From contig JBHLOC010000014.1 of the NCBI GenBank assembly GCA_048940925.1, positions 34,371 to 98,370 of the forward strand: a stretch of 64,000 nucleotides of DNA, written 5' to 3'. This DNA is from Promethearchaeota archaeon. Lineage in GTDB: Archaea > Asgardarchaeota > Lokiarchaeia > Sigyniarchaeales > SOKP01. The notes below the pieces were generated by a model, which was not told where the DNA came from, made no database searches, and saw only the letters and a list, made by a program, of their open reading frames with translations. Of this stretch, positions 9,635 through 59,187 are shown in pieces. Each line of letters opens with the position of its first letter. Positions within the stretch are counted from its first letter, which is position 1. The position numbers were made by a program, and so were the translations under genes.

Positions 9635-11380
9635 ATGATAAAAATAGATAATAATAGTATAAAAAAGAAAAAAAGAAAAAAAATTTTAACCGCATGTATT
9701 GGTCAATGTGTTCATGTGGCTGGAGCCCATAATTTTATGAATATAGCAACCCAATTGGGATTTGAGTGTTTGTTTTTAGGACCTGCAACATCAAATTCAG
9801 TAATTATTGATAAACTAAAAATCTTAAAACCAGATATATTAGGGCTTAGTTATAGGCTAACACCTTCTACTCTTAGACCAATACTTCAACAATTTAAAGA
9901 AAAATATGAAAAATTGAAAGAACAACCTCAACAACTATTTTTTGCTGGTACTCCTGAAGTAGTTAAAGTTGCAAAAGAATTTAGCTTTTTCCATCAATAT
10001 TTTATTGGTGGAGAATCAAAATATAAAATAATCTCTATTTTAAGAAAAGAGTTAGTACCTTCTGAAGAAAAATTAAAAGTTCCAATGAATTTAATTTTCC
10101 GGATAAAATGGAAGAAACCATATCCTGTAATAAGGGCTCATTTTGGATTACCAAGTATGAAAGCTACATTAAAAGGGATACAAAAAATTGCAAATGCAGA
10201 GATTTTAGACATAATCTCAATTGCTCCCGATCAGAATACTCAGGCAAACTATTTTCATCCCAAAGACCAAGTCAGAGATCTATCTGGTGCAGGAGGGGTC
10301 CCTATCAAGACTAAAAAAGATTTTTTAAATTTACATAAATCTAGATTAACAGGAAATTATCCTCTGCTACGAATCTATGCTGGTACTCGTGATTTTATAA
10401 AGTTAGCTGAATTATACAGAGAGACTATCCATAATGCTTGGGGTGCTATTCCGATCTTTTGGTTTAATCAAATGGATGGAAGAGGTCCATTAACATTAAA
10501 AGAATCAATAAAGCAACATTTAAAGGCTATAAAATGGCATGGTGATAATGACATTCCCGTTGAAATCAATGATCCTCACCATTGGAGTTTAAGAGATGCC
10601 CCAGATGCTATTGCAGTTGCTGATATGTATCTATGTGGGATAATAGCTAAAAGATTAGGGGTAAAACATTTCATTGCACAATATATGTTTAATACACCTC
10701 CTTCAAGCTCATTAGATATGGATTTAGCCAAGATTTTAGCAAAAGATGAATTACTTCACACTTTAACAGATAAAACTTTTTCTGTAATTAAACAGGTAAG
10801 AAGTGGATTAGCCAGTTTTCCACTGGATTTAGATAAGGCAAAGGGGCAATTAGCAGCAGCAACTATGGTTCAATTAGCAATAAAACCAGATATAGTTCAT
10901 GTAGTTAGTTATTCAGAAGCTATTCATGCTGCTCTTCCTGAAGATGTAATCGAAAGCTGTAAAATAGTGGATCAAGTTATAAATAGAGTTTATTCAAGTG
11001 AAATTAACATTATTGATAATAAAATAAAAAAAAGGAAAGAAGAATTAATTAAACATGCAAAATGGATAATTAATTTAATACCTCATATGGCTAAAGATAA
11101 AAATGAACTTAAAAATCCATATACTAATTATAAAGTTTTAAATCGTCTAGTGAAATATGGAATATTTGATGCCCCGCATCTAAGAAACAACAAATATGCG
11201 TTAGGGAAAATTACTACCAAAATAATTAATGGGGCATGTTTTTCTTGGGATGATTCAAGGCAGAAAAAATATGATGAAATCGAAAGAATTAAAAACATTA
11301 TCTTTGATCTCCCTGATACTAAATTATCTAAATTGTTAAAACATAAGGAAAAATCTATCTCGGGGGTGATGGATGAATGA
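9635..11380 (+). CDS. Cobalamin-binding domain protein with an uncharacterised C-terminal catalytic domain (mutase-like)
   Basis: N-terminal B12-binding fold with CVHVAG (variant of DxHxxG), FLG, PDILGLSYRL and FAGT; about 430-aa C-terminal domain. Confidence 0.78.
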   Translation: MIKIDNNSIKKKKRKKILTACIGQCVHVAGAHNFMNIATQLGFECLFLGPATSNSVIIDKLKILKPDILGLSYRLTPSTLRPILQQFKEKYEKLKEQPQQLFFAGTPEVVKVAKEFSFFHQYFIGGESKYKIISILRKELVPSEEKLKVPMNLIFRIKWKKPYPVIRAHFGLPSMKATLKGIQKIANAEILDIISIAPDQNTQANYFHPKDQVRDLSGAGGVPIKTKKDFLNLHKSRLTGNYPLLRIYAGTRDFIKLAELYRETIHNAWGAIPIFWFNQMDGRGPLTLKESIKQHLKAIKWHGDNDIPVEINDPHHWSLRDAPDAIAVADMYLCGIIAKRLGVKHFIAQYMFNTPPSSSLDMDLAKILAKDELLHTLTDKTFSVIKQVRSGLASFPLDLDKAKGQLAAATMVQLAIKPDIVHVVSYSEAIHAALPEDVIESCKIVDQVINRVYSSEINIIDNKIKKRKEELIKHAKWIINLIPHMAKDKNELKNPYTNYKVLNRLVKYGIFDAPHLRNNKYALGKITTKIINGACFSWDDSRQKKYDEIERIKNIIFDLPDTKLSKLLKHKEKSISGVMDE

Positions 11381-39822: not shown

Positions 39823-40419
39823 TTATGGTTTAAACCATTCGAAGAAATAATACGATTTTGTTAATGGATTTGCAATAACAAATTTTTTCCTCACAGAGGT
39901 TGCTAACCTTCCTGCCCTTACCATATCTATAGCCGTAATTTCTGAATTGTGAGGTAACACATGAACCATAAAAAGTGAATGCTCAAGTCCTGGTCCTTTT
40001 TTATAGACTACAAAATCCGCTCCAAATTTAAGACCTGGTCGTGGAACATATTTCTTGTCTCTTAAATCTTTATATATAACATATTTATCTTCGAACTTGC
40101 TATGGACTTTTTTAGCTTTACTAAAAAACTCCTGGGCATTTAAATTTTGTTGCGTTTTAACATCAAAAACTGTAATTTCATTATGCTCTAATAAATAATA
40201 TGCTTCTATTAATGATAACTCACTAGGCTTTGAAAAATATTCTAATCGAGGTTTACTAATTCCAAGCGGACTTCCAAAAAAGTTTTTTTTCACATAGAGA
40301 TAAGAAGCGTATAAAGGATTAAATACAATAACTCGATCATTTATAAATTTTGTAGGGATTCTATCTGGTATTTCAACGTCATCCAGAGAGATTTGTTCTT
40401 CCTTTCCTTCTTTCATCAA
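39823..40419 (-). CDS. endA: tRNA-splicing endonuclease, catalytic subunit
   Basis: LSLIEAYYL, YKDLR.K.Y, GLKFGADFVVY..GP..EHS (Tyr, His) and R.A.SVRKK (Lys). Confidence 0.93.
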   Translation of the reverse strand: MMKEGKEEQISLDDVEIPDRIPTKFINDRVIVFNPLYASYLYVKKNFFGSPLGISKPRLEYFSKPSELSLIEAYYLLEHNEITVFDVKTQQNLNAQEFFSKAKKVHSKFEDKYVIYKDLRDKKYVPRPGLKFGADFVVYKKGPGLEHSLFMVHVLPHNSEITAIDMVRAGRLATSVRKKFVIANPLTKSYYFFEWFKP

Positions 40420-44213: not shown

Positions 44214-45251
44214 CTAACTTCTATATTTATATTTTTTTTGTAAAACAATTAAAGAGGTTAGAAATATTATTCCAATAATTATGTAGATATAGTATCCAGA
44301 AATAGTGGTGCTAGAGCCTTTTTTACATACATTATCTTCAAAAATATTTCCCTCACAATTGTATTCATAAATGCACTTCCCATTTCCTAATAAATTATTA
44401 TCCTTGATTAAAGTATAATTAGCTCCTGATAAATATATCCCGTATTGATTGTTACTATTAATTATATTCTCTGAAATAGTATTGTTAATACTAGAGCTTA
44501 AACGAATCCCCCATACATTTTCGTTTATTGCATTTTCTAAGATTTCAGTTTGATTACATTCAAGTGCATAGATTCCCTCATTTGTGTTATTCTTCATTGT
44601 ATTTTGAATTATTTTGGTAGTATTAATCTTTTGAATGTCAAAACCCTTAACATTGTTACTAGCAGTATTATTCTTGCAAAGAATATTACTACTAGAGCTT
44701 ATTTGCAAGCCACCATACCCATTATTGTTTAAAACATTATCAGATAAAGTGATATTTGTGCTATAACTTATCTCTATTCCTAGATGTCCACTATTAGTAA
44801 TAGTATTTTCAGATATTACAAAATTACTGCTATATGATAAATCAAAACCATTATATTGGTCATCAGATATAACGTTATTAATCAACTTACCATTCTGGAT
44901 TCTTCTTAAGGAAACAGCATCATGACCATTAGAATTGATAAACTCACAATTTCTAATTATAAAATAAACTGTAGTTTCCCAAATAAGAAGGCAAAGATAA
45001 GAATTTCCGTCAAAAACTTCATCTTCAATAATGTATGGATCATCTTTTGTTCCATTCCCGAGCCATCCTAAATATGTCGCCCAACCCTCAAACTCATCAT
45101 TATTTTTAATCTGAAGTGGCCCTATAGCCTGCATTTTTGGCATTAATTCGATTTTCTTGAAAGAAACGTTTCCTTGTATAGAAATTAAACCTAATGTTAT
45201 CAAACTTAATATACAGAAGGAAAAAAGTATTTTTTTCAAATTAAAATTCAA
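44214..45251 (-). CDS. Secreted right-handed beta-helix (NosD/CASH-like) protein with a C-terminal anchor
   Basis: Signal peptide, G.GT..DPYIIE, N-rich GI.L..S.N..I..N repeats, then ISGY + TM + basic tail. Confidence 0.85.
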   Translation of the reverse strand: MNFNLKKILFSFCILSLITLGLISIQGNVSFKKIELMPKMQAIGPLQIKNNDEFEGWATYLGWLGNGTKDDPYIIEDEVFDGNSYLCLLIWETTVYFIIRNCEFINSNGHDAVSLRRIQNGKLINNVISDDQYNGFDLSYSSNFVISENTITNSGHLGIEISYSTNITLSDNVLNNNGYGGLQISSSSNILCKNNTASNNVKGFDIQKINTTKIIQNTMKNNTNEGIYALECNQTEILENAINENVWGIRLSSSINNTISENIINSNNQYGIYLSGANYTLIKDNNLLGNGKCIYEYNCEGNIFEDNVCKKGSSTTISGYYIYIIIGIIFLTSLIVLQKKYKYRS

Positions 45252-48916: not shown

Positions 48917-50305
48917 TTAGAGTTCAGAAATTACCTTTTCCATGGTTTTAATCATTGCTTGTGCTTTATCTTTATCTTCTGACTCTGCTGATAAAAGTAT
49001 TGCATTTCTGTGCAACGCAACTTTTATAACGATATATGAATCATTTTCAATTATTTTTAATTCATTTATAATATCATGGTATCTATAGCCATTTTCCTCT
49101 ACTATTTCTCTTAACCGATTATGAATATTACTAATTAACTCAGAGGATACAGCTAAAGTCTTATTAATTTTTATACCTTTAGGAAAACCTCTAGTCAATG
49201 AACTAAGAAGATCATTTTGAGCAGTCATAATTTCAAGAATTTTTAATAATATAAAGTTGCCATCACTGAAGGGAGCAAACTCTGGGAAATAAAATTTAAG
49301 AGTATCTGCTGCGGCAAAACAAGCCCTTTCCTCTCTAATTTGTCTTGAAATCTCTCCGGGGAGATTCTCGACTTGTTTAACAGGAAAACCGCCATCTTCT
49401 ATAAAATTTCGCACGATAGGTGAAATAGAGGGAGTAGTAATTATTGTGTTTCCCTTTGATTTTTGTATTCTTTTATCAAATGACATGAATAACATTAATA
49501 AATCTTCAAAATTAATTTCTAATCCATTCTCATCTATCACCAATATTCTTGATCCATCGACATCAAAACAGACACCAAGATGACTGTTCGATGCTTTTAC
49601 TATATCTGCTGTATTTCTAATAGTATTGATACTAGGAACAGGGTTTGAAGCCCTTTCGCGATAATGTGTATTTAGGGCGATAACTTCAACACCGATATCA
49701 TTAATCAACAATGGTGTAATTTTTCCTGTTGGGCCATAGGAACAATCAACTACTATCTTTAAATTTGCTTTTTTTATTTTTGTTTTATCAACAAATTGCT
49801 GTAGCGATTTAATATATATATCAGCTGTTTGTGGTATAGCTGTGATTTGACCAATTTCATTAGGTGCAACTCTTCTTACATCGGTTGGGTATATATTATA
49901 TAATTCAATTATCCTTTGAATTTCGGACTGTGTCAATTCAATACCTCCAGCATCTAAGAACCTTATTCCGACATCTTCACTATAAAGATGTCCTGCTGAA
50001 AAATATACACCTGCACTCGCTCCAAATCGTCGTATTGTAAATTGTAAAAGAGGGAAGGTACAATCTGACAAATTTAAAAGATTTATACCTGTAGACATCA
50101 ATCCAGAAGTATAAGCTCTTTTTAACATACGACTATCATTATGATAATCTCTGCCCATAACAAGAGATTCATTTTGCTTTAATAAGCTGCCGTGAATCGA
50201 TCCAATTGAGCTTGAAATCTCTGGGGTGAATACATAATTCGCTTTTCCTACAATCCTTCCATTCTTTTTTAATTCATTCAGGTTTTTAATTGGAATCTGA
50301 GCCAT
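48917..50305 (-). CDS. Phosphoglucomutase/phosphomannomutase-fold protein with a degenerate active site
   Basis: I.G.AN, GRD…SRML and VVDC.YG present. SAGH replaces TASHN, and FDVDGSR replaces DxDxDR. Confidence 0.82.
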   Translation of the reverse strand: MAQIPIKNLNELKKNGRIVGKANYVFTPEISSSIGSIHGSLLKQNESLVMGRDYHNDSRMLKRAYTSGLMSTGINLLNLSDCTFPLLQFTIRRFGASAGVYFSAGHLYSEDVGIRFLDAGGIELTQSEIQRIIELYNIYPTDVRRVAPNEIGQITAIPQTADIYIKSLQQFVDKTKIKKANLKIVVDCSYGPTGKITPLLINDIGVEVIALNTHYRERASNPVPSINTIRNTADIVKASNSHLGVCFDVDGSRILVIDENGLEINFEDLLMLFMSFDKRIQKSKGNTIITTPSISPIVRNFIEDGGFPVKQVENLPGEISRQIREERACFAAADTLKFYFPEFAPFSDGNFILLKILEIMTAQNDLLSSLTRGFPKGIKINKTLAVSSELISNIHNRLREIVEENGYRYHDIINELKIIENDSYIVIKVALHRNAILLSAESEDKDKAQAMIKTMEKVISEL

Positions 50306-50641
50306 TTATAACTACTTTTTTGAATTTACGATAAATTTTATGTTGGAACTAATATATGTTAAAAAGCTAAATAAAAATATATAACTTTAACGTTTTTAAA
50401 AATTATATGAAGACACTTTATTTTAAATATTATTTACTCAATTTGGTAAAAAAAACTTATAAATTGCTTACACTCGAGTTTCAATCTTAGATAATTAAAT
50501 CAGTATTAGTCTTTGCATTTCTTTATCGAATTCATAAAATTTTCTTAAAATTTTTGAATGCTTTTTAATATTTTTAAGGTGAAATATTAAATATTATTGT
50601 TTGATTCCTATCTATAATTAAATTATTTAAAAATTTTAATA

Positions 50642-52387
50642 ATGCCTAAAGAATTAGGATCATTTTGTTTAGTACTTCACGCCCACCTACCATGGGTAAT
50701 CGGCCACGGAAAATAATTTGAATTTATCTTATTATACGAAATATGGCCCCATGGAATGGACTGGGTGAATGAAGCAGCAGCAGAAACCTATATACCTCTT
50801 CTTATAGAATTATATAAATTAGTAGATGATGGGTACCATCCAAAATTTACTATTGGGCTTACTCCTGTTCTGTGTGAAATGCTTCGACACCCTAGATTTA
50901 TTGATGGTTTCTTAGGGTATCTTGATGAAAAATATAATGCTGCTGTTCACGATTTTGAGAATTTTACAGAAAGTAAATATGAAGAAGGTAGAATTAAATT
51001 AACTCTATGGTGGCAAGAGTTTTATCAGCGTGTAAAGGAAAATTTCATTCACAGATATAATAAAGATATTATAGGAGCTTTTAAAAATCTCCAAGATATG
51101 GGACTTTTAGATATTATTACCTGCGGCGCTACTCATGGATATGCTCCACTACTATCTAAAGATACATCGATTGATGCTCAATTTAAAACGGCTGTGGATA
51201 ATTATAAGCGACATTTTGGAAGAAATCCCACAGGCGCGTGGTTACCTGAATGTGCTTATCGACCGGGATACAGATGGAAAAATCCAATCTCTGGAGAGGA
51301 ATATCAAAGACCTGGAGTGGAATATTTCCTTGCTAAAAATGGTTTAAAGTATTTTTTTATAGATACTACTTTATTATTGGGAGGAAAATCTCAAGGGGTA
51401 TATGCGGCTCGATTTCCATTACTTGCAGAACTCTGGAAACAATTTGAATCTCAATATGAAGAAATTCCAACTTCTTTTGAAAAATCGCAATATGAACCCT
51501 ATTTAGTATCGACTGATCCATCAACTCCGGGACCTGTAGGATTTTTTACAAGAGATGAAAAAACAGGTATAGTTGTATGGAGTGGAGAACATGGCTATCC
51601 AGGTTGTGCTGAATATCTTGATTTTCATAAAAAGCACTATCCTGGAGGTTTGCGATATTGGAAAGTAACCGAAGCCAAATTGGATTTAGGAAAAAAAATG
51701 TTGTATTGGCCTGATGATGTTCCAGGTAAATTAGATGAAAATGCTGGTCATTATATAAATCTTATTAAAGATATTTTACGTGATTTTAAAGGCAAGTTTG
51801 GAAGAAATGGAATTGTTGTAGCTCCTTATGATGCAGAATTATTTGGACATTGGTGGTTTGAGGGAAATTGGTGGCTATCGAGAGTATTTAGATGGGCAGA
51901 AGATGATCCTGAAATAGATCTAACTAATACAAGATTATATCTTGAAAATAATCCCCCAAATAAGGTAGTGAGCGTAATAGAGGGTTCTTGGGGGCAAGCT
52001 TCATCTCACTGGGTGTGGTTTAACGAGTGGACAACTTGGACATGGGAGAGGATATACGAATGCGAAGCTAAAAGTGAAATAATTACTGCAAAATACAAAG
52101 ATTCTCATGATCCACATCTAATCAGAATTCTTAAACAAATGGCGCGAGAACTTCTATTATTAGAAAGTAGCGATTGGCAATTTCTAATGACGACTTGGAC
52201 CGCAAGAGATTATGCAGAAAATAGAATTGCGTTGCATTATGACAATTTTAATAGACTTTATAATATGGCGAACCTTTATGGAACGGGACAATATGTTGAA
52301 GAGGGCGAGTGGCACTTTCTAGGTTTGATTGAAGATAATGATGGATTATTTGAAGCAATAGACCTTGAACCATTTGCTAAAAAGTAG
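50642..52387 (+). CDS. GH57 1,4-alpha-glucan branching enzyme, interrupted by a 30-nt insertion with an in-frame TAA (50714-50716)
   Basis: ATG 50642 gives MPKELGSFCLVLHAHLPWVIGHGK*, in the same frame as WPHGMDW..EA.AETYIPLL. Downstream motifs GATHG, WLPECAYRP, PYDAELFGHWWFEG and ESSDWQF are intact. Confidence 0.88.
50713..50742 (+). other. Candidate 30-nt archaeal (EndA-type) mRNA intron
   Basis: Removal restores GHGKWPHG with the same spacing as the paralog (KSGTWPAG). Flanked by paired exon segments GGCCA/TGGCC and CCATGG/CCATGG. Confidence 0.5.
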
Positions 52388-54321: not shown

Positions 54322-55902
54322 TTATTCAATTCTTTTAAAATATTCGAGATTTAATTCTTGAAAACAAGAATCAATATCTTCAATTTCTTTTAATTCCCTT
54401 AAATTAATTCTAGCTTTATCTTCAAAATTCTTCGCAGCCCATATTAATTTAAGAAGTCTCTGATGATGATGATGGAACCTTTGATTTGCATAATCCTTAG
54501 CTTGTTCTGTATAAAGTAAAAACGGCCAATCACTTCCCTCCATCAAAAGAAGTTCTCTAGCAATTTGTTTTAGAATCTGTTTTTCCCAATTATTTGGATC
54601 TGGATTAATTTCTAATACATCTTCTAATTCTTTGATTGATTGATTTATATATGGCCATATCCAACCATGTTCTGGATTTTTCCAAACCCTAAAATCACCA
54701 CCTTCTCCCCAACTGCTTTCTCTCATTTTTATTATCGAGAAGTTTTCTCTATTAGAAGAAGTAAAATCAGAAATAGTTATCATATTGATATCATCTTTAT
54801 TATTAATTAACTCGAATACTCTTTTTAACCAATTAATTCCCTCTCCCCACCAATGACCATAAAGTTCAAAGTCATAAGGCGAGATTATGATGCCTTTTTC
54901 TTTATAAGTTTCATAAAATTCTCGAGCTTCTAATTCAAGTAGATTTATAAAATCATTTGCATGAGAGGCAACCATCTCTTCTGCTTTTTCAATATTATAT
55001 AATTTTTTCTCTACTTTTCCAGTAATTCTCCAATAACGTAATCCAGATTCATGATCTTTTTTATGAAATTCTCTGTAATATTTATTTCCAGGATATCCTA
55101 TTTTAGCATCCCATACTTGTCTACTAGTATTATTATTTCTCCCAAATACCGAAATATCAGTTTCTAATTTATGTCCATAATTTACATTTAAACCAAAATC
55201 ATTTTTTTGATCAATAATTTCTGCTGTAAGGATCCCATGAGAATCAACAAAAAAATATTTAATCCCAGAATTGTTCAACCAATAATCTATGCTTTCTCTC
55301 AATTTACCTCGAAAATCCTGTTTAGGACGATATGCACATTCTGGAAGCCAAAAACCTTTTGGAGCTTTACCAAAATATTTTTTATGAGTATCTACAGCTA
55401 GCTGAATTTGAGAAAAAATTCCAGAATCGCGTTCAAAAAGAGGTAAAAACCCATGTGTTGCACCACATGTTATTAATTCAATCATCCCTTCATCTTGGAG
55501 CCATTTAAAACTCCCTAAAATGTCTCGATAATAATTATGATAAAAAGTATCTAATGTATGTTCAAAAGTTCTTAAATGATATTCAGCAATTCCTTTTCTC
55601 TCTTGGTGATTTTCAAATCTTCTGATATCATTTTTTGCTCTTGAGATTAAGTTTTCCATATATTCTGTGAATCTCTGAGTCATATACTCATCCGCAAGTT
55701 GCTCGGCTAAAATTGGCGTGATATTTATTGTAATAGCTGATTTTAATCCTTCTTCTTTCAACTCCCTTAAAATATTTAACATTGGGATATATGTCTCGTT
55801 CATGGCTTCCATTAACCATTCTTCACCAGCTGGCCAAGTTCCCGATTTTTTACACCATGGAATGTGTCCATGTAATATTAAACCAAAATAACCTAGAAGC
55901 AT
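54322..55902 (-). CDS. GH57 1,4-alpha-glucan branching enzyme (intact paralog)
   Basis: LHGHIPW, WPAGEEWL.EA..ETYIP, GATHG, WLPECAYRP, PYDFELYGHWW.EG and EGSDWPF. Confidence 0.92.
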   Translation of the reverse strand: MLLGYFGLILHGHIPWCKKSGTWPAGEEWLMEAMNETYIPMLNILRELKEEGLKSAITINITPILAEQLADEYMTQRFTEYMENLISRAKNDIRRFENHQERKGIAEYHLRTFEHTLDTFYHNYYRDILGSFKWLQDEGMIELITCGATHGFLPLFERDSGIFSQIQLAVDTHKKYFGKAPKGFWLPECAYRPKQDFRGKLRESIDYWLNNSGIKYFFVDSHGILTAEIIDQKNDFGLNVNYGHKLETDISVFGRNNNTSRQVWDAKIGYPGNKYYREFHKKDHESGLRYWRITGKVEKKLYNIEKAEEMVASHANDFINLLELEAREFYETYKEKGIIISPYDFELYGHWWGEGINWLKRVFELINNKDDINMITISDFTSSNRENFSIIKMRESSWGEGGDFRVWKNPEHGWIWPYINQSIKELEDVLEINPDPNNWEKQILKQIARELLLMEGSDWPFLLYTEQAKDYANQRFHHHHQRLLKLIWAAKNFEDKARINLRELKEIEDIDSCFQELNLEYFKRIE

Positions 55903-58116: not shown

Positions 58117-59187
58117 ATGGAAATGACATTTAGGTGGTTTGGAGAAAATGATCCTATTCCTCTTCAATATATTAGACAAATCCCAAAAGTGACAGGAATC
58201 GTTTCAGCTTTATATGATGTTCCTGTTGGAGATATATGGCCTCGTGCTAAAATTAGTAAACTTAAGAGAATTATTGAAGCAGCAGGATTGAATTTTTCTG
58301 TAATTGAAAGTATACCTATTCATGAAGATATTAAACTTGGACGGTCCAATCGCGATGAATTAATAGATAATTATTGCCAGAGTATAATAAATATGGGAAC
58401 TCTTGGGATAAAGACACTCTGCTATAATTTCATGCCTGTGTTTGATTGGTTTCGCACTAATTTAGCATTGGAAAACCCTGATGGTTCTAATTCTTTAGGT
58501 TATTTAAATAAAGAAGTGATAAAAATAAATCCGAAGAAAAATTCTTTAGAACTCCCTGGATGGACTACCCCCTATACCAAAAAAGAACTGAATAATCTTT
58601 TGGATGCTTATTCTGAGATTAATGAAGATGACTTATGGTCCAATTTAGAATACTTCTTAAAAAGAGTTGTTCCAATAGCAGAAGAATTTGGAGTAAAAAT
58701 GGGAATTCATCCAGATGATCCTCCATGGTCAATTTTTGGTCTCCCTCGCATAATTACTAATGAAAAGGCATTAGATCGTGTAATTAAAATTGTAAAGAGC
58801 ACCTCAAACGGGATTACCTTCTGTTCTGCCTCTCTTGGTTTAAATCCAAATATAGATTTAGCCAGATGTATCCAAAAGTTTGGAAAGATAGATCGGATCC
58901 CCTTTGTTCATTGTAGAAATCTTAAAAAAACTGGAAAATTCGACTTTCATGAAAGTAAACATCCTACCGAGTTTGGCGATATTGATATGTATGAAGTAAT
59001 CAAAGCATATGTTGAAATTGAATTTAAAGGAGCAGTGCGTCCTGATCATGGAAGGATGATATGGGGTGAATCTGGGCGTCCGGGTTATGGGTTATATGAT
59101 CGCGCATTAGGAGCTATATATATTATAGGTCTTTGGGAGGGAATTGAAAAAAGTATTAATACTACAATAGTAAAAAATGGAGGTTAG
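58117..59187 (+). CDS. uxuA: Mannonate dehydratase
   Basis: MTFRWFG, IES.PIHEDIKLG, CYNFMPVFDW.RT, HPDDPP, RPDHGR and PGYGLYDRALG. Confidence 0.96.
   Translation: MEMTFRWFGENDPIPLQYIRQIPKVTGIVSALYDVPVGDIWPRAKISKLKRIIEAAGLNFSVIESIPIHEDIKLGRSNRDELIDNYCQSIINMGTLGIKTLCYNFMPVFDWFRTNLALENPDGSNSLGYLNKEVIKINPKKNSLELPGWTTPYTKKELNNLLDAYSEINEDDLWSNLEYFLKRVVPIAEEFGVKMGIHPDDPPWSIFGLPRIITNEKALDRVIKIVKSTSNGITFCSASLGLNPNIDLARCIQKFGKIDRIPFVHCRNLKKTGKFDFHESKHPTEFGDIDMYEVIKAYVEIEFKGAVRPDHGRMIWGESGRPGYGLYDRALGAIYIIGLWEGIEKSINTTIVKNGG

What the first reader, a model, noticed from the sequence alone, without database searches (positions are those of the whole stretch)
50642..50760. Candidate spliced mRNA intron (tRNA-intron-like geometry) in a glycogen branching enzyme gene
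Seen in sequence: the GH57 gene starts at ATG 50642 (…LHAHLPWVIGHGK), meets TAA at 50714, and resumes in the same frame at WPHGMDW. Against the intact paralog at 54322-55902 (LHGHIPWCKKSGTWPAG), exactly 10 codons (30 nt) are extra. The insert is very AT-rich, while the flanks use GC-rich codons that are unusual here and pair with each other: GGCCA 50702-06 with TGGCC 50744-48, and CCATGG 50690-95 with 50749-54. Removing 50713-50742 leaves a 5-bp stem with a 7-nt loop (CGGAAA^A) joined between loop bases 6 and 7. That is the geometry of an anticodon arm with a 37/38 intron, and it encodes G-H-G-K-W-P. Inside are CGGA/TACG (3 of 4 pairs), an AAA bulge and a TAAT/ATTA helix, i.e. a relaxed bulge-helix-bulge whose 3' bulge is 5 nt rather than 3. 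The remaining 543 codons show no decay. Established: archaeal EndA splices BHB/BHL introns, including the cbf5 pre-mRNA intron of crenarchaea, and an endA gene lies 10 kb away. Inference: a spliced, possibly regulatory, intron in a metabolic gene of an Asgard-like archaeon. Caveat: a strict 3-nt-bulge cut on the CGGA/TACG register would remove 28 nt and shift the frame. Alternatives are ribosomal bypass or readthrough, a recent inactivating insertion, or an assembly artefact.
Basis: partly seen in the sequence, partly recalled or inferred. Interest (0 to 1): 0.92.

Follow-up and report, generated by a model that had tools for sequence, protein, structure and literature searches.

The report
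tRNA-type mini-intron in Asgard GH57 gene
A 30-base hairpin insert carrying a stop codon splits an otherwise healthy glycogen-branching-enzyme gene of an Asgard archaeon; it resembles the introns this organism cuts out of its tRNAs and recurs in six related genomes, so the mRNA is very probably spliced, which papers document inside only one archaeal protein gene (cbf5).

Summary
The GH57 branching-enzyme gene (ATG 50642) hits TAA at 50714 and resumes in the same frame. Exactly 30 nt are extra relative to about 45 intact orthologs.

An independent metagenome sample also contains the insert. A 30-nt insert sits at the same codon in five other Promethearchaeota (Asgard) genomes, and 12 nt downstream in a seventh.

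- Both exons are under strong purifying selection (dN/dS 0.03-0.07).
- The hairpin and the exon-intron helix show compensatory changes.
- The insert resembles the 29-30-nt tRNA T-loop introns of this genus.
- The genome encodes a two-subunit (alpha-beta)2 EndA and RtcB.

I conclude it is an EndA-type mRNA intron. There is no RNA evidence.

- The closest analogue is a T-loop intron, not an anticodon-arm intron.

[quoted passage not shown] The most stable fold, cut canonically, would remove 28 nt and shift the frame.

The intron-bearing genes do not form a clade (AU test p 7e-15), so the intron was gained or lost repeatedly.

This scan has already reported similar mini-introns in this genome and in other Asgard genomes.

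The parts
50642..50711 (+). Exon 1 of the GH57 branching-enzyme gene: 23 codons plus the first base of the Ile codon (a phase-1 junction). It carries the LHxHLPW motif.
   Evidence: Exon 1 is under purifying selection in intron-bearing genomes (dN 0.02-0.09 against dS 0.4-1.4 among five of the copies; G000 pairs dN 0.16-0.22).
50712..50741 (+). The 30-nt intron in the preferred register. Windows 50710-50739 and 50711-50740 give the identical mRNA in this genome because of the A runs. The in-frame TAA lies at 50714-16.
   Evidence: The insert is absent from about 45 orthologs at exactly this point. Removing it gives a complete 571-codon CDS. This register restores I or V (site 1) and M (site 2) in 7 of 7 copies.
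50713..50735 (+). Intron hairpin (h'): 50713-17 pairs with 50731-35, 50720-21 pairs with 50727-28, the loop AUUUA is 50722-26, and 50718-19 with 50729-30 form a U.U/U.U internal loop.
   Evidence: 90% of cells are paired across 7 copies. Three pairs have changes on both sides: the U.U mismatches here are A-U/U-A in G014 and G-C/C-G in G017.
50706..50709 (+). 5' strand of the central helix H in the in-frame register (ACGG). C50707-G50738 and G50708-C50737 pair. G50709.A50736 and A50706.A50739 are mismatches in this genome. In the alternative register, CGGA 50707-10 pairs with UACG 50735-38.
   Evidence: the C-G pair becomes U-A in two copies (LW60_4 and G069), the G-C pair is kept in 7 of 7, and the third pair forms in 3 of 7. 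The outermost position never pairs.
50736..50739 (+). 3' strand of the central helix H (ACGA), followed by the 3' bulge A50740 A50741 | U50742.
50702..50705 (+). Exon-exon outer helix: GGCC pairs with GGCC 50745-48 (plus A50706-U50744 in the alternative fold). Two extra unpaired nucleotides lie between the 3' bulge and this helix.
   Evidence: The Gly codon here is GGY in 5 of 5 site-1 copies in the genus against 12 of 41 intron-less orthologs. The helix is not formed in LW60_4 or at site 2.
50742..52387 (+). Exon 2 (UA of the Ile codon, then WPHG... through the stop): GH57 catalytic domain and branching-enzyme C-terminal domain.
   Evidence: PF03065 (7.8e-25) and PF09210 (6.9e-23); dN/dS 0.03-0.065.
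39823..40419 (-). Catalytic alpha subunit of the splicing endonuclease EndA. The second, non-catalytic paralog is on another contig (G000:C18, locus L034:1210-1812).
   Evidence: The best PDB matches are the catalytic subunits of the crenarchaeal heterotetramers (3p1z_B, 4e-33), and Tyr/His/Lys are kept. In the paralog, aligned to 1a79, the Tyr is Phe and the His is Thr.

Best explanation
The 30 nt at 50712-50741 are a tRNA-type (bulge-helix-bulge) mini-intron in the coding region of a functional GH57 glycogen-branching-enzyme gene of a Promethearchaeota (Asgard) archaeon.

Proposed mechanism. The pre-mRNA folds so that the last exon-1 bases (ACGG, then the bulge A-A|A) pair with the intron's 3' end (ACGA, then the bulge A-A|U) around a 9-position intron hairpin. 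[quoted passage not shown] RtcB joins the exons, giving ...GHG-I-WPHG... and a 571-aa enzyme. Unspliced mRNA terminates at TAA after 24 codons.

Origin. The intron belongs to the same sequence and structure class as the 29-30-nt T-loop (59/60) introns of tRNA-Gln, tRNA-Ser and tRNA-Leu in this genus. It has been gained or lost repeatedly at one BHB-compatible hot spot after a CAY-GGA-R motif, and once at a second such motif 12 nt downstream.

Shown: the insert, its recurrence, the covariation, the selection on both exons, and the presence of the enzymes. Inferred: the splicing itself, the exact cut positions, and the tRNA-intron origin.
For: (1) The insert is real. An independent-sample contig carries it with no differences.

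(2) It recurs. Five of 54 genus genomes have a 30-nt insert at the identical codon and one has it 12 nt downstream. A seventh copy with a different hairpin is in MAG LW60_4. All other orthologs are uninterrupted.

(3) The gene is alive. All seven CDS are complete after removal (six at 571 codons). dN/dS is 0.03-0.065 against intron-less sisters, the same as controls (0.035-0.12), and exon 1 alone has dN far below dS. Exon 1 holds the GH57 LHxHxP motif, which aligns to solved branching enzymes.

(4) RNA structure is conserved rather than the peptide. Five pairs change on both sides, and the covariation score is reached by 1 of 500 shuffles and exceeds all slid controls. The exon C pairs with an intron G in five copies and is replaced by U-A in two. 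LW60_4 keeps the length, position and helices but has a different hairpin sequence and a stop at a different place.

(5) Exon synonymous sites are tied to the intron. GGY-CAC-GGA occurs in 5 of 5 site-1 copies against 0 of 41 intron-less orthologs (Fisher 7e-7). Extra similarity between intron-bearing genes is confined to the 30-60 nt upstream.

(6) It is kin to tRNA introns. A covariance model built from the mRNA copies retrieves tRNA T-loop introns as 4 of its 9 weak hits across 54 genomes. Six of seven copies align to T-loop introns better than their shuffles do (p <= 0.003). The length (29-30 nt), the loop AYUUA, the hairpin core at nt 8-18 and the bulges AA|A and AA|U are shared.

(7) The machinery is present: an EndA catalytic alpha subunit with the crenarchaeal-type loop region plus a degenerate beta paralog, and RtcB. 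The (alpha-beta)2 type is the one reported to cut relaxed motifs (PMC5829648 abstract; PMC2738675).

(8) Other genes of this genome have clean BHB mini-introns that I checked myself: purA (GGGG/CCCC), gyrB (GGCG/CGCU) and mvk ([GGCG]AA|A...[CGCA]AA|C).
Against: No RNA data exist for this organism (see Tried and rejected), so splicing is inferred.

The motif is not a strict hBHBh'. In the in-frame register the central helix has only 2 Watson-Crick pairs in G000 (3 in three of the other copies), and its outermost position never pairs. The 3' bulge is followed by 2 extra unpaired nucleotides. This is weaker than the purA, gyrB and tRNA introns of the same genome.

A competing fold with a 4-bp helix (CGGA/UNCG) is more stable, and is the MFE in G014 and LW60_4. 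Cut canonically, that fold would remove 28 nt and shift the frame.

The fold energy of the G000 region is not significant on its own (z -1.29).

A length of 30, a multiple of 3, is not required by splicing, and it is what readthrough would need.

Confidence: 0.72

Rival explanations
1. It is a spliced EndA intron, but with the first reader's junction (50713-50742). The 5' cut is canonical on the strong CGGA/UACG helix. The 3' cut is one nucleotide before the exon stem, inside a 5-nt bulge. The product is G-K-W.
For: The 4-bp helix CGGA/UNCG is the more stable fold. Its 5' bulge is a clean 3 nt. The 3' cut would lie 1 nt from the outer helix, as in canonical motifs. K at this residue occurs in solved GH57 branching enzymes (3n8t, 5wu7).
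Against: The products would be K, D, K, N, E, K at site 1 and K at site 2. All 41 intron-less genus orthologs have I or V at site 1, and M or T at site 2. Each insertion would then have had to change the residue as well. Under the canonical ruler this register has no complementary helix positions (worked out from alignment A3). At site 2 there is no nearby exon stem to set the cut. The hairpin core would lie 1 nt out of register with the tRNA-Gln introns.
Confidence: 0.1
2. Programmed translational bypass (hopping), as in phage T4 gene 60 or the mitochondrial 'byp' elements. The mRNA keeps the 30 nt and the ribosome takes off before the stop and lands just before the Ile/Trp codons.
For: It is a short insert with a hairpin and an in-frame stop. 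Some copies have matching codons at both ends: GAA...GAA in G014, AAA...AAA in G069, and GGA...GGA in G017, G042 and G055.
Against: No single take-off/landing rule fits all copies. G000 and LW60_4 have no matched pair. In LW60_4 the stop is 8 codons into the insert, not next to a take-off codon. Where GGA would be the take-off codon, it is followed by a sense codon. The covarying exon-intron helix, the tie to upstream synonymous sites, and the likeness to tRNA introns are not expected for bypassing.
Confidence: 0.05
3. Stop-codon readthrough or recoding. The insert is translated as a 10-residue loop.
For: The insert length is a multiple of 3 in all seven copies, and each has only one in-frame stop.
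Against: The encoded peptides are not conserved, whereas the RNA pairs are kept by compensatory changes. The stop position differs in LW60_4. The site lies inside the conserved GHG-x-WPHG block, which is uninterrupted in all solved homologs. TAA is used as an ordinary stop here.
Confidence: 0.04
4. The insert inactivates the gene. Either it is a pseudogene, or only an N-terminally truncated protein is made from ATG 50756. The paralog at 54322-55902 would supply the activity.
For: An intact GH57 paralog lies 2 kb away. The BHB in G000 is the weakest of the set, and there is no RNA evidence.
Against: Seven species keep both exons complete, in frame and with a start codon. dN/dS is 0.03-0.065, and exon 1 has dN far below dS. 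Decay or relaxed selection is not seen. Exon 1 carries the conserved GH57 region I.
Confidence: 0.06
5. Assembly or sequencing artefact.
For: The genome is a MAG (100% complete, 8.4% contamination).
Against: An independent-sample contig carries the insert. Six other assemblies from different studies carry diverged, compensated versions.
Confidence: 0.01

Closest known systems
BHB intron in the cbf5 (pseudouridine synthase) pre-mRNA of Crenarchaeota (Watanabe 2002; Yokobori 2009, PMC2738675)
   Same: It is a short intron in the coding region of a protein gene. Its BHB is unconventional or relaxed and is attributed to a hetero-oligomeric EndA. The predicted cuts fall between the 2nd and 3rd bulge nucleotides. 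It is a phase-1 junction. It is present or absent among close relatives, interpreted as gain and loss.
   Different: The gene (a metabolic GH57 enzyme), the phylum (Asgard) and the intron sequence all differ. Here there are two insertion sites 12 nt apart, clear sequence likeness to tRNA T-loop introns of the same genus, and a weaker central helix. cbf5 splicing is shown by cDNA and in vitro cleavage, whereas this case has no RNA evidence.
Non-canonical tRNA introns at position 59/60 (T-loop) in Asgard and Thermoproteales tRNAs (Marck and Grosjean 2003; bioRxiv 10.64898/2026.10.13.758758)
   Same: Length of 29-30 nt. The same layout: a 4-nt helix strand, AA|N, a hairpin with loop AYUUA and core CGAAYUUAUCG at nt 8-18, a 4-nt helix strand, then AN|U. 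The same genus and the same presumed enzyme.
   Different: The host is an mRNA. The exon cannot supply UUCG, so the helix is weaker. The outer helix is built from Gly/His and Trp/Pro codons instead of the T stem, with 2 extra unpaired nucleotides.
BHB intron in the 5' UTR of Haloferax volcanii HVO_1309 (PMC7714728)
   Same: An mRNA substrate of the tRNA splicing endonuclease.
   Different: That intron lies in the untranslated leader and the enzyme is a homodimeric EndA. Here the intron interrupts the reading frame.
Translational bypass elements (T4 gene 60; mitochondrial 'byps' of Magnusiomyces; from my own knowledge)
   Same: Short hairpin inserts with in-frame stops in intact genes, with a patchy distribution.
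   Different: Matched take-off and landing codons are not consistently present. The insert shows exon-intron covariation and likeness to tRNA introns.

Membership tests
Archaeal BHB (EndA/RtcB-spliced) intron | [quoted passage not shown] | tested here: not met
   In the in-frame register: a 3-nt 5' bulge next to a 9-position hairpin. The central helix has 2 pairs (G000, G017, G042, G055) or 3 pairs (G014, LW60_4, G069) of 4. The 3' bulge is followed by 2 extra unpaired nucleotides. This fits only the relaxed HBh'-type class.
Archaeal BHB (EndA/RtcB-spliced) intron | Cuts after the 2nd nucleotide of each bulge give the correct mature sequence | tested here: inconclusive
   This holds for the register with cuts after 50711 and 50741, which restores I/V/M in 7 of 7 copies. 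It fails for the more stable 4-bp register, which removes 28 nt and shifts the frame.
Archaeal BHB (EndA/RtcB-spliced) intron | Helices supported by compensatory change across homologous copies | tested here: met
   5 pairs with changes on both sides, covariation score reached by 1 of 500 shuffles, all slid controls lower.
Archaeal BHB (EndA/RtcB-spliced) intron | Precise absence from orthologs, and an intact host gene under selection | tested here: met
Archaeal BHB (EndA/RtcB-spliced) intron | Host encodes a broad-specificity EndA ((alpha-beta)2 or epsilon2) and the RtcB ligase | tested here: met
   a catalytic alpha subunit and a beta paralog lacking Tyr and His. RtcB. Subunit assembly itself was not tested.
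Archaeal BHB (EndA/RtcB-spliced) intron | Spliced RNA and/or a circular intron observed; cleavage by EndA in vitro | not testable with these tools
   No RNA holder was listed. This needs wet-lab work or a metatranscriptome.
GH57 glycogen branching enzyme | GH57 catalytic domain plus the BE_C domain, and an N-terminal LHxHxP region | tested here: met
   (PF03065, PF09210); alignment of an intact ortholog to 1ufa, 3n8t and 5wu7. Enzyme activity was not tested.
Programmed translational bypass element | Matched take-off and landing codons, with a stop directly after the take-off codon | tested here: not met
   No consistent pair across the 7 copies. The stop is displaced in LW60_4.

The most novel reading that the evidence does not exclude
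A family of tRNA-derived 30-nt mini-introns is currently mobile in Promethearchaeota (Asgard). It moves from tRNA T-loops into BHB-compatible sites of protein-coding genes, and it re-invades or is exchanged at the same CAY-GGA-R hot spot in different species. This would amount to ongoing intron gain in mRNAs of the closest archaeal relatives of eukaryotes, using the tRNA-splicing machinery.
Probability: 0.35. Interest if true: 0.85.

Novelty: new member of a known kind. Interest (0 to 1): 0.62.

Why it matters
In the papers I could search, EndA-type splicing inside a coding region is documented for one gene only: cbf5, in Crenarchaeota (PMC2738675; PMC7714728 states this as of 2020). A second case, in a metabolic gene of an Asgard archaeon, would show that mRNA splicing by the tRNA machinery is not a crenarchaeal oddity.

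This locus is informative because it offers three things together:
- seven diverged copies;
- two insertion sites 12 nt apart;
- clear kinship with tRNA T-loop introns.

Together these make two questions directly testable: how archaeal introns arrive at new sites, which a 2026 preprint on Asgard tRNA introns calls open, and how relaxed a motif the Asgard EndA accepts.

The value of this single locus is tempered, because this scan has already reported similar mini-introns in this genome and in other Asgard genomes.

Tried and rejected
RNA evidence. The look-up of sequencing runs listed no RNA holder. Only DNA contigs could be laid, and they cannot show splicing.

Repeat family. blastn-short of the insert against the whole genome found only chance AT-rich matches. 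The covariance model R1 found no further strong copy in 54 genus genomes or in the window's own genome. This particular intron family is therefore confined to the GH57 gene plus tRNA-like weak hits.

Fold energy alone is not significant.

ARAGORN:
- In intron mode on the genome it gave noisy calls.
- It found no tRNA in the four loci that by eye are T-loop-interrupted tRNAs.

Registers considered and rejected as canonical BHBs:
- Cuts after 50709 or 50710 have no helix pairs in register.
- The 4-bp register removes 28 nt.

G006 looked like a truncated ortholog, but the stretch holds 100 N.

Literature searches for Asgard mRNA BHB introns found none.
Full report
**What is there.** The + strand ORF starting at ATG 50642 reads 24 codons (…LHAHLPWVIGHGK) and meets TAA at 50714-16. 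The same frame then continues from WPHGMDW to the stop at 52385-87. Exon 2 matches Pfam GH57 and the branching-enzyme C-terminal domain. An intact paralog lies at 54322-55902. The minimum-free-energy fold of 50686-50758 is not better than shuffles (z -1.29), so the single sequence proves nothing.

**Is the insert real?** Contigs of an independent sample (X6) cover 50502-51066 without a difference. Contigs of related organisms in the same metagenomes break off at 50740/50741 and continue upstream with an uninterrupted …GGNCATGG(T). No RNA run was available.

**Comparison with relatives.** Relatives carry titles such as Promethearchaeota and Promethearchaeia MAGs, so this is an Asgard archaeon. 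I read the N-terminal region of orthologs from 54 same-genus genomes and several other genera.
- About 45 are uninterrupted and read GHG-(I/V)-WPHG-(M/T)-DW.
- Five genus genomes (G000, G014, G017, G042, G055) have a 30-nt insert at the same codon.
- G069 has a near-identical 30-nt insert 12 nt downstream, after the second CAT-GGA (WPHG|…|DW).
- MAG LW60_4 has a 30-nt insert at the first site, with a different hairpin sequence and its stop codon elsewhere.
- After removal of 30 nt, the six genus CDS are complete at 571 codons.

**The gene is functional.**
- dN/dS between intron-bearing genes and their intron-less sisters is 0.03-0.065, the same as intron-less control pairs (0.035-0.12).
- In exon 1 alone, dN is far below dS.
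- Exon 1 supplies the conserved LHxHxP block, which aligns with solved GH57 branching enzymes.
- A pseudogene, or a protein starting at Met 50756, is therefore unlikely. The insert must be removed or skipped.

**Which 30 nt?** Because of the A runs, windows 50710-39, 50711-40 and 50712-41 give the same mRNA in G000 (GGA-AUA-UGG, G-I-W). The other copies discriminate between registers.
- Cuts one base after the GGA codon and two bases before TGG (50712-41 in G000) give AUA, GUU, AUA, AUC, GUA, AUA at site 1 and AUG at site 2. These encode I or V, and M, which is the ortholog consensus in 7 of 7.
That window would, however, require every insertion to have changed the residue as well.
- Under the canonical ruler, the cut falls after the 2nd bulge nucleotide with 4 helix positions before it (as stated for cbf5 in PMC2738675). 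Only 50712-41 places real complementary bases in the central helix: C-G and G-C always, a third pair in 3 of 7 copies, and an outermost position that never pairs. This was worked out on alignment A3.

**Structure and covariation.** On the seven copies the model comprises the outer helix, the central helix, the 3-nt 5' bulge, a 9-position hairpin and the 3' bulge.
- 81.5% of cells are paired.
- Five pairs have changes on both sides.
- The covariation score is reached by 1 of 500 shuffles and is well above all slid controls.
- The exon C that pairs with an intron G in five copies is U paired with A in LW60_4 and at site 2.
- The U.U/U.U mismatches in the G000 hairpin are A-U/U-A in G014 and G-C/C-G in G017.
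- The insert-encoded peptides are not conserved.

**Exon constraint.** The synonymous combination GGY-CAC-GGA upstream of site 1 occurs in 5 of 5 genus copies and in 0 of 41 intron-less orthologs (Fisher 7e-7; not corrected for relatedness). Extra similarity among intron-bearing genes is limited to the 30-60 nt upstream of the site. Either the exon is selected to pair, or flanks travel with the intron.

**Distribution.**
- On the gene tree the intron-bearing rows are scattered: 6 changes, at least 5 of them forced by supported branches. G014 is sister to intron-less G016 at 100% support.
- With the flanking columns removed, a tree that holds the five site-1 genus copies together is rejected (delta lnL 223, p-AU 7e-15). 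The group was named after the tree was seen.
- This means repeated gain, repeated precise loss, or lateral exchange. Direct repeats such as ACGGAA flanking the insert in G017, G042 and G055 would allow loss by slippage.

**Kinship with tRNA introns.**
- A covariance model built from the mRNA copies finds no other strong copy in 54 genomes. Four of its nine weak hits are T-loop-interrupted tRNA genes.
- These tRNA introns, and those of G000's own tRNA-Gln genes, are 29-30 nt long and sit at 59/60. They form canonical motifs: [UUCG]AA|N, hairpin, [YGAA or CGGA]AN|U, T stem.
- Six of seven mRNA copies align to them better than their own shuffles do (p <= 0.003).
- In the preferred register the hairpin core lies at nt 8-18 from the 5' cut in both classes, and the bulges read AA|A and AA|U in both.

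**Machinery.**
- The window's EndA (39823-40419) is most like the catalytic subunits of the crenarchaeal heterotetramers, and it keeps Tyr, His and Lys.
- A second ~200-aa paralog has Phe and Thr at the Tyr and His positions.
- This is the (alpha-beta)2 architecture, the type reported to cut relaxed motifs (PMC5829648). The 2026 preprint on Asgard tRNA introns found it in most Asgard genomes.
- RtcB is present.

**Other introns of the same genome.** Following leads from earlier notes of this scan, I read three genes myself.
- purA and gyrB have textbook motifs (GGGG/CCCC and GGCG/CGCU).
- mvk has [GGCG]AA|A…[CGCA]AA|C, with a mismatch at the outermost helix position and no exon stem. That is the same relaxed pattern as here.

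**Open problem.** The more stable local fold pairs exon CGGA with intron UNCG (4 bp). It is the MFE in G014 and LW60_4. Canonical cuts on that fold would remove 28 nt and shift the frame. G000 has the weakest in-frame helix of the set. Which conformer the enzyme uses can only be settled with RNA.

**Rivals.**
- Bypassing lacks a consistent take-off/landing pair.
- Readthrough conflicts with RNA-level rather than peptide-level conservation.
- Inactivation conflicts with the selection data.
- An artefact is excluded.

**Verdict.** This is very probably an EndA-type mRNA mini-intron: a new member of the kind known from cbf5, with a relaxed motif and signs of mobility.

Noticed in passing
G000:C86:29753-29890 (-), G000:C89:2886-2983 (+), G000:C31:16179-16260 (+); loci L077, L078, L081, L082: tRNA-Gln, tRNA-Ser(GCU) and tRNA-Leu genes of this genus carry 29-30-nt introns in the T-loop (59/60) with canonical BHBs. 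ARAGORN does not call these genes at all. In the G000 tRNA-Leu (C31) the canonical cuts would leave U instead of A at position 58.
   Followed up: partly
G000:C41 about 44560-44660 (-) purA; G000:C83 about 10700-10770 (+) gyrB; G000:C43 about 58470-58505 (+) mvk: Three more protein genes of the same genome are split by 31-, 53- and 31-nt inserts with BHB geometry. Removing each restores SWG-D-EGKGK, LEGV-RRRPAMYIG and ILFGE-HFVVYG respectively. Earlier notes of this scan pointed to them, and I confirmed the junctions by eye.
   Followed up: partly
L133:359-406 (JAHPZI010000001.1, MAG LW60_4): Same site, same 30-nt length, but an unrelated hairpin (8 perfect pairs, loop UUUUUCU) and Asn-His instead of Gly-His upstream, so the exon stem is lost. 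This is either a very old copy or a separate intron inserted at the same hot spot.
   Followed up: partly
L061:1921-1968 (-) and downstream (G069): At the second insertion site the exon bases GGCCUCA just upstream of the junction are exactly complementary to UGAGGCC 14 nt downstream of the intron (Asn-Glu-Ala codons). This may be a site-specific exon stem. I did not check whether intron-less relatives also have GAG-GCC there.
   Followed up: no
G000:C43:75345-76133 (-): The GH38-family match contains one in-frame TGA. I did not examine it.
   Followed up: no
window 48917-50305 (-): A 462-aa ORF lies head-to-head with the GH57 gene. Earlier notes on relatives call it a phosphohexomutase homologue with degenerate catalytic loops. 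I did not check this.
   Followed up: no
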